Of a stretch of 21,036 nucleotides of DNA, positions 15,001 to 18,000 are shown one piece after another. Numbering within the stretch: the first letter of the stretch is position 1; the number at the start of each line of letters is the position of its first letter. This DNA is from a virus (Duplodnaviria; Heunggongvirae; Uroviricota; Caudoviricetes), in IMG/VR virus record IMGVR_UViG_2698536628_000005, one strand, 5' to 3'. The position numbers were made by a program.

Positions 15001-18000
15001 GGAACATCCAGAAGATATCGCATTACAGGCCGCTGCATATTTCTTCGCTAAGGAGCAGGAGGAAGAATGTAACTGCCCTGTATGTCAGCTTTCCCGACAA
15101 ATTAATTTAATGCATTAACCGGAATCAGGAGTTCCGCCATGAACGCATACCTCACCTGCGACCGCATAGAGGAGCGTCGCTGGATTAATCAGCAAATTCA
15201 GGATGAAAAGGATAAATGGATTGATGATCGGGCGCAGGAGCTTATCAGCATGTTCCCCGATAAACCATTGCTTATGAGCAGCCTTTTTTTACCCAAAGAA
15301 GCCCAACTAGCACTCACTGGCGAAAAAGCTGAAGAGGCGTACAACGATTATATCTCAGCGATCGCCTATGCTCGGGCGGAAGAAGAATGGGAGAGAAAAT
15401 TCTCCCCCTGTCCTTTCTGATTTTCAGGACCAAAAAATGTTCGATATCGTTGAATTTGTTAAGCAGCAGGAGCGCTTTTTCTGCGAGGCATTAACTGAAC
15501 CGACGCTGACATGGGCGAAGGAAAGTCAGTTTGCAATTCAGCAATTCCAGAAAAATGCCTTTCTGGCTGACACAGCAAGGGCAAATCTGCCCAGCGCACA
15601 GAACGCTATCATCAATGTTGCCGCCATCGGCATAACCCTGAACCCGGCCAGCAAGCTGGCGTATCTGGTCCCACGAAAAAAGGCTGTATGCCTGGATATC
15701 AGTTATATGGGGCTTCTGCATCTGGCACAGGTCACAGGAGCCATTCAGTGGGGGCAATGCAAACTTGTTTACGAGAAGGACATTTACGAGTCCAACGGTA
15801 TTGACTGCGCCCCCACGCACAAATACAACCCCTTCGTAGACAGGGGCGCACGCATTGGCGGTTATTGTGTCGTAAAAACATCCGAAGGCGACTATCTGAC
15901 CGAAGAGATGAGCAACAGGGAAATCGAGGTCATCAGGGCGTGCAGCAAAGCCGGAAATAACGGAGGAAGTAGCCCGTGGGATAGTTTCCCCGATGAAATG
16001 GCCAGAAAAGCCATTGTTAAGCGCGCCAGCAAATACTGGCCCCGTCGCGATCGCCTGGATACAGCTATCGACTACCTGAACACTCAGGGCGGTGAAGGTA
16101 TCATCCTGAATGCTGATCACATCCCTGAGCGTGACGTCACTCCCGCATCAGATGAGATTATCAATGAGATCACTCAGGCAATCACCGAAATTAACAAGAC
16201 ATGGGATGACCTGCTTCCCTTATGTTCCAAAACATTCCGTCGCACGATTGCATCACATGAATATCTCAGTCAGGAAGAAGCTGTCAAAACGCTTGATTTT
16301 GTCAAAAAGAAAGCTGCCAGAAACAAGGCCACGGCGGAAGCGAAAATTCACGCCACCACGGAAAATAACAGCGAGGCCGTGTCATGACACCAGAAATTAT
16401 TCTCCAGCGAACTGGCGTGGATATTACCAGCCTCGACCAGGGCGATGATGGATGGCACAAGCTGAGACTCGGTGTTATCACTGCTTCAGAAGTTCACAAT
16501 GTGATAGCAAAGCCACGTTCCGGCAGCAAATGGCCTGATACAAAAATGTCATACTTCCACACCCTGCTGGCTGAAGTTTGTACTGGCGTGGCACCGGAAG
16601 TTAACGCTAAGTCGCTCGCATGGGGAAAGCAATACGAAGATGATGCCCGTGCCCTCTTCGAATTTATCGCGGATGTTACCGTCTCGGAAACGCCAATAAT
16701 TTTTCGTGACGAAAGCATGCGCACCGCCTGCTCTCCCGACGGTTTATGCAGCGACGGTAACGGTCTTGAGCTTAAATGCCCTTTTACTTCCCGCGACTTC
16801 ATGAAATTCCGGCTTGGCGGCTTTGACGCTATCAAGCCTGCTTACATGGCCCAGGTGCAATTCAGCATGTGGGTTACAGACAAGGACGCCTGGTACTTCG
16901 CCAACTACGACCCACGCATGAAGCGTGAAGGCCTGCATTATGTCGTGGTCGAGCGGGATGAAAAGTACATGGCGAGTTTTGATGAGATGGTGCCGGAGTT
17001 CATCGACAAAATGGACGAAGCACTGGCGGAAATTGGTTTTGTATTTGGAGAACAATGGGGGGTTAATAACTAATGGATGAAGTGATTTTTACTTATAACG
17101 AAGAATCAGCACTGACCGCCGGACAAGGTAGTTTTATTACCGAAACGGGTGCGCATATCATTAACATCACCGAAGCAGAACTCAAGCAATCAGAAAAAGG
17201 TGCCCGATTCATTGAGTTTTCTGGAGAATCCGACGACGGACGGAAAATCCAATATCTCAGTGTTTGTGTTCAGAAGAATGACGGTACTGAAAATAAATTT
17301 GGGGCGAGCATTATTCACGCCATGATGGGATGCACAGGAATTGGGCAGTTAACGCAACATATGGTTTCCGTCAGTAAATATGTTGCACCTGAGTTTCACG
17401 GAAAGAAAATCGGACTCGTCCTCCAGAAAGTATTAACCACAAACAGAAAGACTGGCGCAGACGGTTACCAGATGGAAATCCGCATTCCATTCATTGCAGA
17501 AACAGGGCAGACACTGAAAGAAAAAGCTGAAGGAAAGAAACCAGAAACGGTAGCAAATATGGTTTCCACTCTCAAAGACAAAGACAATCGCAGCAAAAAC
17601 GTAAACCCGAATCACACGGACGACCCAGGTTACTGGCAGTACGGCAGCGATAGTTTTTAATTCACAAACAAAACCAGGCTTTAAATGCAGTGAACAACTG
17701 AAGCCTTAACACACCTCTACACGGAGATATTAATATGAACCAGCATCAAACTGATGTTAATGTTTTCATTAACGACCTCGACGGCGGGGTATTTGTTAAC
17801 AAACTTGGCGCGGTATTAAGTGAAGTTGCCTTTGGCGTAAACAGCACAAACAAAAAAGGAAAGGTATGTGTTGAATTCGAATTATCTTCACTTGATGAAA
17901 ATCGCGTATCAGTTTCCCATAAACTAAAATTCACACGCCCGACAATGCGTGGTAGTAAATCAGAAGAAGACACAACTAACACCCCGATGTTTGTAAATAA

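What the first reader, a model, noticed from the sequence alone, without database searches (positions are those of the whole stretch)
15139..17073. Mosaic recombination module: Gam-like gene, then a RecT-core annealase with a Bet-like C-terminus, then lambda-type Exo
The exonuclease is clearly lambda Red-alpha-like. The annealase core looks RecT-like (SKAGNNG...PW...KYWP), yet its last roughly 90 residues parallel the lambda Bet C-terminal region as I recall it (KTWDDLLPLCSKTFRR...EAVKTLDFVKKKAA against Bet TWDDDLLPLCSQIFRR...EAVKALGFLKQKAA). Exonuclease and annealase pairs are known to be partner-specific (RecE with RecT, Red-alpha with Red-beta). A RecT core that has acquired the Bet C-terminus next to a Red-alpha-type Exo would be a natural domain swap, and could help map the interaction interface.
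Basis: partly seen in the sequence, partly recalled or inferred. Interest (0 to 1): 0.55.

Follow-up and report, generated by a model that had tools for sequence, protein, structure and literature searches.

The report
RecT-core annealase carrying lambda Bet's exonuclease-docking tail
This Shiga-toxin phage recombination operon encodes a real two-part annealing protein, a RecT-type DNA-binding core joined to the small C-terminal domain that lambda Bet uses to dock on lambda exonuclease; that domain and the exonuclease gene travel together as a cassette found on at least three kinds of annealase core.

Summary
Window 15139-17073 is 100% identical to Stx2a phages P13374 and TL-2011c. It encodes GamL (the phi80-type Gam), a 316-aa annealase and an exonuclease 88% identical to lambda Exo.

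The annealase is a domain mosaic:
- Residues 1-205 are RecT family. They match E. coli RecT (E=1e-20) but not the Bet N-terminal domain (E=2.5). Their best fold match is Listeria RecT.
- Residues 206-231 are a predicted disordered linker.
- Residues 232-300 match the Redbeta C-terminal domain (CTD): 53% identity, E=1e-25, TM 0.91-0.94 to PDB 6M9K.

The Redbeta residues needed for Exo and SSB binding (L223, F249, K253) and Exo L91 and F94 are conserved.

In 70 related loci, all 26 annealases with a Bet-like CTD are followed by a lambda-Exo homologue. None of the 17 with the same core but an unrelated CTD is. CTD divergence tracks Exo divergence (r=0.92) and the core does not (partial r=0.003). 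An ERF-core annealase carries the same cassette.

This is an old, widespread cassette, not a recent one-off swap. The interface was already solved in 2019, phi80 has the same architecture, and a 2025 paper suggested partner-domain shuffling without analysing it. The result is a real and moderately interesting variant of a known system. Binding was not tested experimentally.

The parts
15139..15420 (+). gamL: phi80-type RecBCD-inhibitor homologue (93 aa), first gene of the module
   Evidence: NCBIfam NF033500 phi80_GamL, an equivalog model, 1.8e-44 and 149.8 bits against a cutoff of 40. PHROG 1050 at 1e-48. 74% identical to phi80 GamL. No Pfam hit. Against lambda Gam only the first 15 aa align by BLAST. 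By hhalign the first 42 columns align at 92.6% probability. AGGAG lies 7 nt upstream of the ATG.
15437..16387 (+). Annealase (316 aa; GenBank annotates an upstream start at 15368): the mosaic protein
   Evidence: The start at 15437 is supported by AGGA 8-9 nt upstream, by homologue N-termini and by the 316-aa database cluster P0001.
15437..16051 (+). Annealase residues 1-205: RecT-family DNA-annealing core
   Evidence: Pfam RecT covers residues 31-204 at 1.8e-24. TIGR00616 scores 65.8 bits against a cutoff of 52.65, with no hit to TIGR01913 bet_lambda. 33% identity to E. coli RecT over 157 aa, E=1.2e-20. Against the Bet N-terminal domain E=2.5. The AlphaFold2 model has pLDDT about 85-96 here, and its best PDB match is Listeria phage RecT 7ub2_E, E=8e-7.
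16052..16129 (+). Annealase residues 206-231: flexible linker, and the zone where the mosaic junctions fall
   Evidence: pLDDT is below 50 at 205-207 and 215-231. Homologue alignments are highly conserved up to KYWP..LD.AI..N and then split into unrelated CTD classes. The P0003/P0115 junction falls here. An IS element cuts the gene here in other Stx2a phages.
16130..16336 (+). Annealase residues 232-300: Redbeta-type three-helix C-terminal domain, the inferred Exo- and SSB-docking module
   Evidence: 53% identity to lambda Bet 192-261, E=1.1e-25. The only PDB sequence hits of the whole protein are Redbeta CTD chains 8tfu_A (6.7e-19) and 6m9k_D (1e-14). The model superposes on 6m9k_D/F at TM 0.91-0.94 and rmsd 0.6-0.8 A. 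L223, F249 and K253 equivalents are conserved. I227 is T and L250 is V.
16337..16384 (+). Annealase residues 301-316: extra C-terminal tail ([16 protein letters not shown]) with no lambda counterpart; its 3' end carries the exo ribosome-binding site
   Evidence: Alignments. GAGG lies 7 nt upstream of the exo ATG, and the annealase stop overlaps the exo start as ATGA.
16384..17073 (+). exo: lambda Exo (Red-alpha) orthologue, 229 aa
   Evidence: 88% identity to lambda Exo over 225 aa and 82% to phi80 Exo. Pfam YqaJ at 2.5e-28. Nucleotide identity to lambda rises to 81% exactly at the exo start. The block [17 protein letters not shown], which holds the catalytic D119, E129 and K131 (positions from my own knowledge), is identical to lambda.
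16630..16668 (+). Exo residues 83-95 (helix E): the surface that binds the Redbeta CTD in 6M9K
   Evidence: Q83, D87, L91 and F94 are conserved. T90 is A and T95 is I. Interface residues are taken from PMC6393309.
17073..17660 (+). Fourth gene of the operon: SSB-like protein (195 aa), called 'SSB-2' for TL-2011c in the literature
   Evidence: PHROG 743 'single strand DNA binding protein' at 8e-69. No Pfam or NCBIfam hit. Its start overlaps the exo stop as TAATG. PMC12315714 names SSB-2 in TL-2011c. It is absent from all 70 related loci.

Best explanation
The segment is the homologous-recombination module of an Stx2a-converting lambdoid phage. It has four translationally coupled genes: gamL, annealase, exo and an SSB-like gene.

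The annealase has two domains of different ancestry:
- a RecT-family core that binds and anneals single-stranded DNA;
- a flexible linker of about 25 residues;
- a roughly 70-residue three-helix domain homologous to the C-terminal domain of lambda Redbeta.

By analogy with the solved Redbeta-CTD/lambda-Exo complex, this domain most likely docks on helix E of each subunit of the neighbouring Exo trimer. The RecT-type core would then be loaded on the 3' overhang as Exo digests the 5' strand. The same pocket most likely binds the C-terminal tail of SSB afterwards.

The CTD coding region and the adjacent exo gene behave as one inherited cassette. Recombination in the linker region has joined that cassette to different annealase cores: the Redbeta core in lambda, RecT-type cores here and in phi80, and an ERF-type core in another phage contig.

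Shown here: the domain homologies, the predicted fold, conservation of the interface hot-spot residues, the mosaic junctions, and the co-occurrence and co-divergence of CTD and Exo. Inferred: the physical binding, the loading mechanism and the SSB hand-off in this particular protein.
For: Domain identities:
- The core matches RecT only. It passes TIGR00616 above cutoff and scores E=1e-20 against E. coli RecT. It scores E=2.5 against the Bet N-terminal domain and gives no TIGR01913 hit.
- The CTD matches Redbeta only. It is 53% identical over 70 aa, E=1e-25. The only PDB sequence hits of the whole protein are 8tfu and 6m9k.

Fold:
- The AlphaFold2 model has mean pLDDT 81.9 with a low-confidence linker.
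- Foldseek matches the N-terminal domain to LiRecT 7ub2 (8e-7). It matches the CTD to the 6m9k Redbeta CTD at TM 0.91-0.94, rmsd 0.6-0.8 A.
- Control: a protein with the same core but a different CTD (P0115) hits LiRecT and gives no Redbeta-CTD match.

Partner: Exo is 88% identical to lambda Exo.

Interface, using residues defined in PMC6393309:
- L223, F249 and K253 equivalents, and Exo L91 and F94, are conserved.
- Both sides carry paired changes: CTD I227T and L250V, Exo T90A and T95I.
- Across 28 pairs the interface residues change together by class. Examples are F/K/M/L with M/T/F/Y in the Morganella class and A/L/S/M with L/L/F/E in the Yersinia class.

Context:
- All 26 related loci with a Bet-like CTD have a lambda-Exo homologue (50-90% identity). 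In 24 it abuts the annealase gene and in two it starts about 200 nt downstream.
- None of the 17 loci with the same core and the unrelated 'D-type' CTD has one within 5 kb.

Co-divergence:
- Mantel r for CTD against Exo is 0.92 (p=2e-4). For core against Exo it is 0.37.
- Partial r for CTD-Exo given core is 0.90. For core-Exo given CTD it is 0.003.

Direct evidence of shuffling:
- The P0003 core is 100% identical to the P0115 core while their CTDs are 27% identical. The P0003 CTD is 95% identical to the window's.
- An ERF-core annealase carries a Redbeta-like CTD (46% identity, E=7e-20). It is followed by an overlapping Exo 75% identical to lambda's.

Other support:
- phi80 has the same architecture, and its RecT was shown to promote recombination in vivo (PMC3945230).
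- Translational coupling is seen as ATGA and TAATG overlaps.
Against: - No binding or activity data exist for this protein, and I could not run a complex prediction.
- The window's CTD is the most diverged of the lambda-like class. It is 53% identical to lambda's while Exo is 88%. Other loci with about 85% Exo identity have 61-79% CTD identity. The two may therefore have partly separate histories, or the CTD may have adapted to something else.
- Two of the four pocket residues differ from lambda (T for I227, V for L250).
- Co-occurrence and co-divergence of CTD and exo would also follow from simple physical linkage of adjacent DNA.
- The related loci are not phylogenetically independent, so the counts and the Mantel p-value overstate the number of independent events.
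Confidence: 0.8

Rival explanations
1. The CTD is chiefly a host- or phage-SSB-binding domain. Its association with exo reflects only that the two stretches of DNA are adjacent and are inherited together, not an Exo-docking function in this protein.
For: The Redbeta CTD binds the SSB C-tail through the same pocket, using L223, F249 and K253 (PMC6393309; PDB 8tfu). Physical linkage alone would produce the co-occurrence and the Mantel correlation. The window's CTD is unusually diverged relative to its Exo and has an extra tail. The operon also uniquely carries its own SSB-like gene ending in ...GSDSF.
Against: The Exo-contacting residues change in concert with Exo helix E residues across classes. 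Exo F94, which fills the pocket, is invariant in all 28 pairs. No locus in the sample has a Bet-like CTD without Exo. In lambda the two functions coexist rather than exclude each other.
Confidence: 0.12
2. There was no domain swap. The CTD is ancestral to the whole RecT/Redbeta superfamily and was inherited vertically, while the cores simply diverged faster.
For: The divergent CTD classes of Yersinia and Morganella (about 30% identity) sit with equally divergent Exos. This shows the fusion is old.
Against: E. coli RecT has no such domain. A 2023 review describes the Listeria RecT C-terminus as only 26 residues rather than about 70 (PMC11611040). Nearly identical cores carry unrelated CTDs: P0003 and P0115 have cores 100% identical and CTDs 27% identical. 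The D-type CTD gives no fold match to Redbeta. An ERF-family core carries the same CTD. Core-Exo partial correlation is 0.003.
Confidence: 0.04
3. The protein is simply a lambda Bet orthologue, or simply a RecT, with roughly uniform similarity. The apparent mosaic would be an artefact of the reader's memory.
For: Database annotations vary between 'Bet', 'RecT' and 'recombinase' for identical sequences. Pfam puts both cores in PF03837.
Against: The domain-by-domain comparisons are sharply asymmetric. The NCBIfam models separate the two cores. The fold matches split between 7ub2 and 6m9k.
Confidence: 0.02

Closest known systems
Phage lambda Red system (Gam, Redbeta/Bet, Exo/Red-alpha), including the Redbeta-CTD/Exo crystal structure 6M9K
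   Same: Same gene order gam-annealase-exo and the same overlapping annealase stop and exo start. Exo is 88% identical. The annealase C-terminal three-helix domain is homologous (53% identity, TM 0.91-0.94). The residues essential for complex formation in lambda are conserved: L223 and F249 in the CTD, L91 and F94 in Exo.
   Different: The DNA-binding core is RecT-type, not Redbeta-type (E=2.5 against the Bet N-terminal domain, no TIGR01913 hit). Gam is replaced by GamL. Pocket residues I227 and L250, and Exo T90 and T95, are changed. There is an extra 16-residue tail and a fourth, SSB-like gene.
Phage phi80 (Lula) GamL - RecT-phi80 - Exo module
   Same: Same architecture: GamL (74% identical), a RecT-type core joined to a Redbeta-type CTD, and a lambda-type Exo (82% identical). 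RecT-phi80 promotes recombination in vivo (PMC3945230).
   Different: The core belongs to a different RecT subtype (54% identical, with an insertion). The phi80 CTD is much closer to lambda's, while the window's is 58% identical to phi80's. phi80 has Mog next to gamL and no SSB-like gene. The window has the reverse.
Rac prophage RecE/RecT
   Same: The annealase core is the same family as RecT (33-35% identity, shared SKAGNNGPW motif).
   Different: E. coli RecT has no Redbeta-like CTD and pairs with RecE. A 2023 review states that RecT binds RecE and not lambda Exo (PMC11611040). Here the partner is a lambda Exo orthologue and no RecE is present.
Stx2a phages P13374 / TL-2011c / phiON-2011 (E. 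coli O104:H4 and O103:H25), 'SAP type 4 + Exo + SSB-2' Rec module of Genome Res 2025 (PMC12315714)
   Same: Identical sequence (100% over 1935 nt). That paper lists TL-2011c under SAP sequence type 4 with SSB-2. [quoted passage not shown]
   Different: That paper states the analysis was beyond its scope. The domain boundaries, the homology of the CTD to Redbeta, the link between CTD and Exo and the interface covariation are worked out here.

Membership tests
RecT family of single-strand annealing proteins (TIGR00616 / Pfam PF03837) | Match to the curated family model above its cutoff | tested here: met
   TIGR00616 scores 65.8 bits against a cutoff of 52.65 over residues 30-202. Pfam RecT scores 86.8 bits against a cutoff of 24 over residues 31-204. 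The stricter equivalog model for E. coli RecT itself (NF007351, cutoff 296) is not reached (71.6 bits), so it is a family member, not a RecT orthologue.
RecT family of single-strand annealing proteins (TIGR00616 / Pfam PF03837) | Rad52-like annealase fold closest to a solved RecT | tested here: met
   The best PDB match of the model is Listeria phage RecT 7ub2_E (E=8e-7, TM 0.60 on the target). Rad52 and Sak appear only at E>0.07, and the Redbeta N-terminal domain is not among the 50 listed matches (E up to 0.92).
RecT family of single-strand annealing proteins (TIGR00616 / Pfam PF03837) | Canonical partner is a RecE-type exonuclease | tested here: not met
   The adjacent nuclease is 88% identical to lambda Exo. 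In the BLAST of the 70 related loci, which used the E. coli RecE C-terminal domain among the queries, no RecE-like ORF was found. The window itself was not queried with RecE. The P13374 annotation of this stretch lists exo as its only exonuclease.
RecT family of single-strand annealing proteins (TIGR00616 / Pfam PF03837) | ssDNA binding and annealing activity | not testable with these tools
   Only indirect evidence: the phi80 protein of the same architecture promotes recombination in vivo (PMC3945230).
Lambda Redbeta / Bet (TIGR01913 bet_lambda) | Bet-type N-terminal DNA-binding domain (residues 1-177) | tested here: not met
   No TIGR01913 hit at E<=0.01, while lambda Bet scores 169.5 bits. 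BLAST of the window's N-terminal domain against the Bet N-terminal domain gives E=2.5.
Lambda Redbeta / Bet (TIGR01913 bet_lambda) | C-terminal three-helix domain homologous to Redbeta 195-261 | tested here: met
   53% identity over 70 aa, E=1.1e-25. phmmer against the PDB gives 8tfu_A at 6.7e-19. Foldseek gives TM 0.91-0.94 and rmsd 0.6-0.8 A to 6m9k chains D-F.
Lambda Redbeta / Bet (TIGR01913 bet_lambda) | Exo/SSB-binding hot-spot residues L223, F249, K253 (essential in PMC6393309) | tested here: met
   All three are conserved. Neighbouring pocket residues differ: I227 is T and L250 is V (residue roles).
Lambda Redbeta / Bet (TIGR01913 bet_lambda) | Physical complex with lambda-type Exo | not testable with these tools
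   Supported only by adjacency, conservation and covariation.
Lambda exonuclease (Red-alpha; YqaJ/PD-(D/E)XK, Pfam PF09588) | Family model match and full-length similarity to lambda Exo | tested here: met
   PF09588 scores 99.7 bits against a cutoff of 22. 88% identity over 225 of 226 lambda residues. TIGR03033 scores 54.5 bits, below its 68.05 cutoff.
Lambda exonuclease (Red-alpha; YqaJ/PD-(D/E)XK, Pfam PF09588) | Catalytic block with D119, E129, K131 (positions from my own knowledge of lambda Exo) | tested here: met
   The segment [25 protein letters not shown] is identical to lambda.
Lambda exonuclease (Red-alpha; YqaJ/PD-(D/E)XK, Pfam PF09588) | Helix E ridge (T90, L91, F94, T95) that binds the Redbeta CTD | tested here: inconclusive
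   L91 and F94, the essential residues in pull-downs, are conserved. T90 is A and T95 is I. Whether binding is kept cannot be decided from sequence.
GamL (phi80-type RecBCD inhibitor, NF033500) | Match to the equivalog model and similarity to phi80 GamL | tested here: met
   149.8 bits against a cutoff of 40. 74% identity to phi80 GamL over 93 aa.
Lambda Gam (Pfam Gam) | Sequence membership of the lambda Gam family | tested here: not met
   No Pfam hit. BLAST aligns only 15 N-terminal residues. hhalign aligns 42 N-terminal columns at 92.6% probability. PMC12315714 calls Gam and GamL different sequence types with similar predicted folds.

The most novel reading that the evidence does not exclude
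The roughly 70-residue Redbeta-type C-terminal domain, together with the exo gene next to it, is a mobile partner-specificity cassette. Lambdoid phages graft it by recombination in the linker onto at least three different annealase cores: Redbeta, RecT and ERF. Exonuclease (and SSB) specificity of two-component recombinases would then reside entirely in this small domain and be independent of the annealing core. The class-specific paired substitutions at the CTD/helix-E interface, including the window's own T227/V250 with Exo A90/I95, would be natural specificity switches. It would follow that any annealase could be re-partnered by swapping its tail.
Probability: 0.55. Interest if true: 0.65.

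Novelty: new variant of a known kind. Interest (0 to 1): 0.5.

Why it matters
Annealase-exonuclease pairs are known to be partner-specific, and that limits how recombineering systems can be mixed or moved between hosts.

- The 2019 structure paper stated that the Redbeta C-terminal domain had no significant homology to other proteins.
- A 2023 review listed as unknown whether RecT-type annealases use a similar domain to bind their partners.
- A 2025 survey guessed at partner-domain shuffling but left it unanalysed.

Here a large natural set shows RecT-type cores, and at least one ERF-type core, carrying that very domain. They carry it always and only together with a lambda-type Exo. The interface residues change in step on both sides.

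If confirmed biochemically, this gives a simple rule, that the tail decides the partner. It also gives a ready-made panel of natural variants for engineering orthogonal or portable recombineering pairs. It would explain why 'RecT' and 'Bet' annotations are applied inconsistently to these proteins.

The module is also common in clinically relevant Stx2a phages. The annealase gene is found in 148 of 5426 complete E. coli genomes, and phage-encoded recombinases are thought to drive mosaicism in such phages.

Tried and rejected
- A profile search of the 5.8-billion-protein collection with an alignment of 15 C-terminal domains returned only 12 short fragments and not even lambda Bet. The word prefilter evidently fails on so short a query, so I drew no conclusion from it.
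- phmmer of the window's CTD against the 50%-identity representative library gave only 22 hits. Most were fragments or lambda Bet pieces, because full-length proteins cluster by their cores. The search was still useful for revealing the ERF fusion P0141. P0153 (728 aa, repeats) is a false positive.
- The contig encoding P0141 was too short (1.8 kb) and had no DNA available, so it could not show its nuclease. A 79%-identical relative on an IMG/VR contig answered the question instead.
- The phi80 genome paper (PMC3510586) is not held. The supplements of PMC12315714 are not held. The 2024 Redbeta-SSB structure paper was not found. I therefore cannot exclude that one of these already describes the mosaic.
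- The promoter and terminator scan of 14400-18200 found promoter-like sites at background level and nothing interpretable inside the operon.
- I considered that about 36 phage records with the same core but shorter matches might carry a different CTD. They instead have an IS element cutting the gene.
- I considered that the D-type CTD might be a very distant Redbeta-CTD relative. Neither BLAST nor Foldseek on a model supports that.
- A prediction of the annealase-Exo complex could not be run with the tools available.
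Full report
**What is in the window.**
Window 15139-17073 holds three same-strand ORFs:
- a 93-aa gene at 15139-15420;
- an annealase ending at 16387;
- a 229-aa exonuclease at 16384-17073.

The stretch is 100% identical over all 1935 nt to Stx2a-converting phages TL-2011c, P13374 and phiON-2011, from the E. coli O103:H25 and O104:H4 outbreak lineages. Those records annotate it as 'recombinase/RecT', 'exonuclease' and 'gam-like'. The annealase gene occurs in 148 of 5426 complete E. 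coli genomes, always on the chromosome.

The genes are translationally coupled:
- AGGAG lies before the first ATG.
- The annealase stop and exo start overlap as ATGA, with GAGG upstream.
- The exo stop and the next gene's start overlap as TAATG.

The annotated annealase start is 15368. ATG 15437 is better supported, because AGGA lies 8-9 nt upstream, homologues start there, and the database cluster is 316 aa long.

**Checking the observation, domain by domain.** I took lambda Bet, Exo and Gam from NC_001416 and RecT from E. coli K-12.
- Exo is 88% identical to lambda Exo along its whole length.
- The full annealase aligns with lambda Bet only from residue 178 onward. It aligns with RecT only over residues 56-202.

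Split into domains:

| Comparison | Result |
|---|---|
| Residues 1-205 vs RecT | 33% over 157 aa, E=1.2e-20 |
| Residues 1-205 vs Bet N-terminal domain | E=2.5 |
| Residues 232-300 vs Bet 192-261 | 53% over 70 aa, E=1.1e-25 |
| Residues 232-300 vs RecT C-terminus | no hit |

Curated models agree. The protein passes the RecT-family model TIGR00616 and does not hit the Bet model TIGR01913. Lambda Bet does the reverse. The only solved structures the protein matches by sequence are Redbeta C-terminal-domain chains 8tfu and 6m9k.

An AlphaFold2 model (mean pLDDT 81.9) shows a confident core, a low-confidence linker around residues 205-231, and a confident helical C-terminal domain.
- By Foldseek the core's best match is Listeria phage RecT 7ub2 (E=8e-7).
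- The C-terminal domain superposes on the Redbeta CTD of 6m9k at TM 0.91-0.94 and rmsd 0.6-0.8 A.

**The first gene.** It is not a lambda Gam orthologue but GamL, the phi80-type RecBCD inhibitor.
- It hits NF033500 at 1.8e-44 and is 74% identical to phi80 GamL.
- Its relation to lambda Gam is limited to the N-terminal roughly 42 positions (hhalign probability 92.6%).
- The literature describes the two as different sequence types with similar predicted folds (PMC12315714).

**Is it a real domain swap?** Close homologues of the annealase are 70-100% identical through the core, up to the motif KYWP..LD.AI..N. After that they fall into unrelated C-terminal classes:
- a lambda-like class (E. coli, Serratia, Klebsiella, Citrobacter, Rosenbergiella), up to 78% identical to lambda's;
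- two divergent Bet-like classes (Yersinia, and Morganella/Providencia/Proteus), about 30% identical at E about 1e-14;
- a 'D-type' class (Salmonella, Enterobacter, Klebsiella) with no similarity to Bet.

The clearest case is E. coli protein P0003.
- Its core is 100% identical to that of Salmonella P0115, but the two C-terminal domains are only 27% identical.
- The P0003 C-terminal domain is 95% identical to the window's, although its core is only 76% identical.

As a control I modelled the D-type protein P0115. Its core again matches Listeria RecT, and its C-terminal helices give no match to Redbeta.

**Does the tail go with the exonuclease?** I fetched 70 loci encoding relatives of the core from one genome per species and analysed their ORFs.
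- All 26 loci whose annealase has a Bet-like C-terminal domain have a lambda-Exo homologue (50-90% identical). In 24 it abuts or overlaps the annealase gene. In L020 and L024 it starts about 200 nt downstream.
- None of the 17 loci with the D-type tail has one within 5 kb. Sixteen of those tails are intact and one annealase is truncated.
- In 16 of those 17 a gene for a 160-aa protein follows instead. It comes directly after the annealase gene, except in L008, where another ORF intervenes. The L016 copy hits Pfam Sipho_Gp157. The 17th contig ends before any downstream gene.

Across 28 annealase/Exo pairs the identities correlate as follows:
- C-terminal domain against Exo: Mantel r=0.92, p=2e-4.
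- Core against Exo: r=0.37.
- Tail-Exo partial correlation given the core: 0.90.
- Core-Exo partial correlation given the tail: 0.003.

The C-terminal domain and exo therefore behave as one inherited unit, independent of the core.

The same unit also occurs on an ERF-family core.
- The annealase on an IMG/VR contig hits PF04404 at 2.4e-22.
- It ends in a Redbeta-like domain (46% identical to lambda's, E=7e-20).
- It overlaps the start of an Exo 75% identical to lambda's.

With lambda itself, that makes three annealase core types sharing one cassette.

**The interface.** According to the 6M9K paper, Exo helix E (T90, L91, F94, T95) inserts into a pocket of the Redbeta domain formed by L223, I227, F249 and L250, capped by K253. 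Mutating L223, F249, L91 or F94 abolishes the complex. L223, F249 and K253 are also needed for SSB binding and for oligonucleotide recombination (PMC6393309).
- In the window, L223, F249 and K253 equivalents and Exo Q83, D87, L91, F94, L184 and Y186 are conserved.
- I227 is T and L250 is V on one side. T90 is A and T95 is I on the other.

Across the 28 pairs, F94 is invariant and position 253 is always K or R. The remaining contact residues change together by class:

| Class | CTD 223/227/249/250 | Exo 90/91/94/95 |
|---|---|---|
| Lambda | L/I/F/L | T/L/F/T |
| Morganella | F/K/M/L | M/T/F/Y |
| Yersinia | A/L/S/M | L/L/F/E |

This pattern is what a maintained, co-adapting contact would produce. 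Shared inheritance could produce it too.

**Most likely mechanism (inferred).**
1. GamL blocks RecBCD.
2. The Exo trimer resects the 5' strand of a DNA end.
3. The annealase's C-terminal domain holds it on Exo helix E, so that the RecT-type core loads on the emerging 3' strand.
4. The same pocket then engages an SSB tail at the replication fork, where annealing occurs. This is the hand-off model proposed for lambda.

The phi80 protein of the same architecture does promote recombination in vivo (PMC3945230).

**What remains odd.** Relative to lambda, nucleotide identity jumps to 81% exactly at the exo start. The C-terminal domain is only about 60% identical in DNA and 53% in protein. Among loci with about 85% Exo identity, the window has the most diverged tail.

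The window also has a 16-residue C-terminal extension. It is the only locus of the set with an SSB-like fourth gene, and that protein ends in ...GSDSF. I cannot tell whether the tail has adapted to this extra partner.

**Novelty.** The sequence is long known, phi80 has the same layout, and the interface was solved in 2019. However:
- A 2023 review called it unknown whether RecT-type annealases use a similar domain.
- The 2025 lambdoid Rec-module survey lists TL-2011c under 'SAP type 4'. [quoted passage not shown]
- De Paepe et al. described RecT-phi80 only as '32% identical to Redbeta'.

I could not read the phi80 genome paper or the relevant supplements, so prior description cannot be excluded. 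I rate this a new variant of a known kind. It is of moderate interest, chiefly as a natural demonstration that the small tail, not the core, carries exonuclease specificity.

**Limits.**
- No binding or activity was tested, and no complex model could be run.
- The related loci are not independent samples.
- Physical linkage of the tail-coding DNA with exo could by itself explain co-occurrence and co-divergence.
- The two large-database searches with the tail alone were insensitive, so the true spread of the cassette across annealase families is not measured.

Noticed in passing
window 17073-17660: A fourth, translationally coupled gene encodes a 195-aa protein. It hits PHROG 743 'SSB' and is the 'SSB-2' of TL-2011c in the literature, but it has no Pfam or NCBIfam hit. 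It is absent from all 70 related loci. It ends in ...DDPGYWQYGSDSF, a terminal Phe after acidic residues. This recalls the E. coli SSB tail (DDDIPF) that binds the Redbeta CTD pocket, so it may be a second ligand for the annealase tail.
   Followed up: partly
window 13330-13617 and 14260-14547: A 288-nt direct repeat (86% identical, 930 nt apart). It forms the shared C-terminal roughly 95 residues of two adjacent anti-repressor-like genes: 12827-13612, and 13868-14542 with an ORF6N domain.
   Followed up: partly
window 14837-15118 and the whole window: In the phi80 record GamL is annotated 'toxic without Mog'. The window has GamL (74% identical) but no homologue of phi80 Mog/agt anywhere in its 21 kb. 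A 93-aa ORF of unknown function with a CxxC motif (PHROG 1635) sits immediately upstream of gamL instead.
   Followed up: partly
L074 (LC727873.1) about 3450-5450; about 36 similar Stx2a phage records: In another set of Stx2a phages the same annealase gene (core 99% identical) is cut by an insertion sequence just after ...NADHIP, which is in the linker. The Bet-like tail and exo are missing, leaving a core-only truncated protein.
   Followed up: partly
L008-L019, L023, L027, L043, L069, L070 (downstream of the annealase): Annealases with the same RecT-type core but the unrelated 'D-type' tail are followed by a 160-aa gene instead of an exonuclease. The L016 copy hits Pfam Sipho_Gp157. This hints that this tail is also partner-specific, for a different partner.
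   Followed up: partly
L076 3992-4747 and 4744-5424 (IMG/VR contig); protein P0141: An ERF-family annealase core carries a Redbeta-like C-terminal domain and is followed by an overlapping lambda-Exo homologue (75% identical). This is a third core type on the same cassette.
   Followed up: yes
L009, L010: Two 1.9-kb contigs labelled Micromonospora and Streptomyces carry an enterobacterial-type RecT plus the Gp157-like gene. They are about 60% identical in protein to the window's annealase and are most likely assembly contamination.
   Followed up: no
L016, L028, L030 versus L011, L014, L017, L020 (gene upstream of the annealase): Lambda-type Gam and phi80-type GamL occupy the same slot and are mixed freely with both tail types and with or without Exo. 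The anti-RecBCD gene is therefore a separately exchangeable unit.
   Followed up: partly
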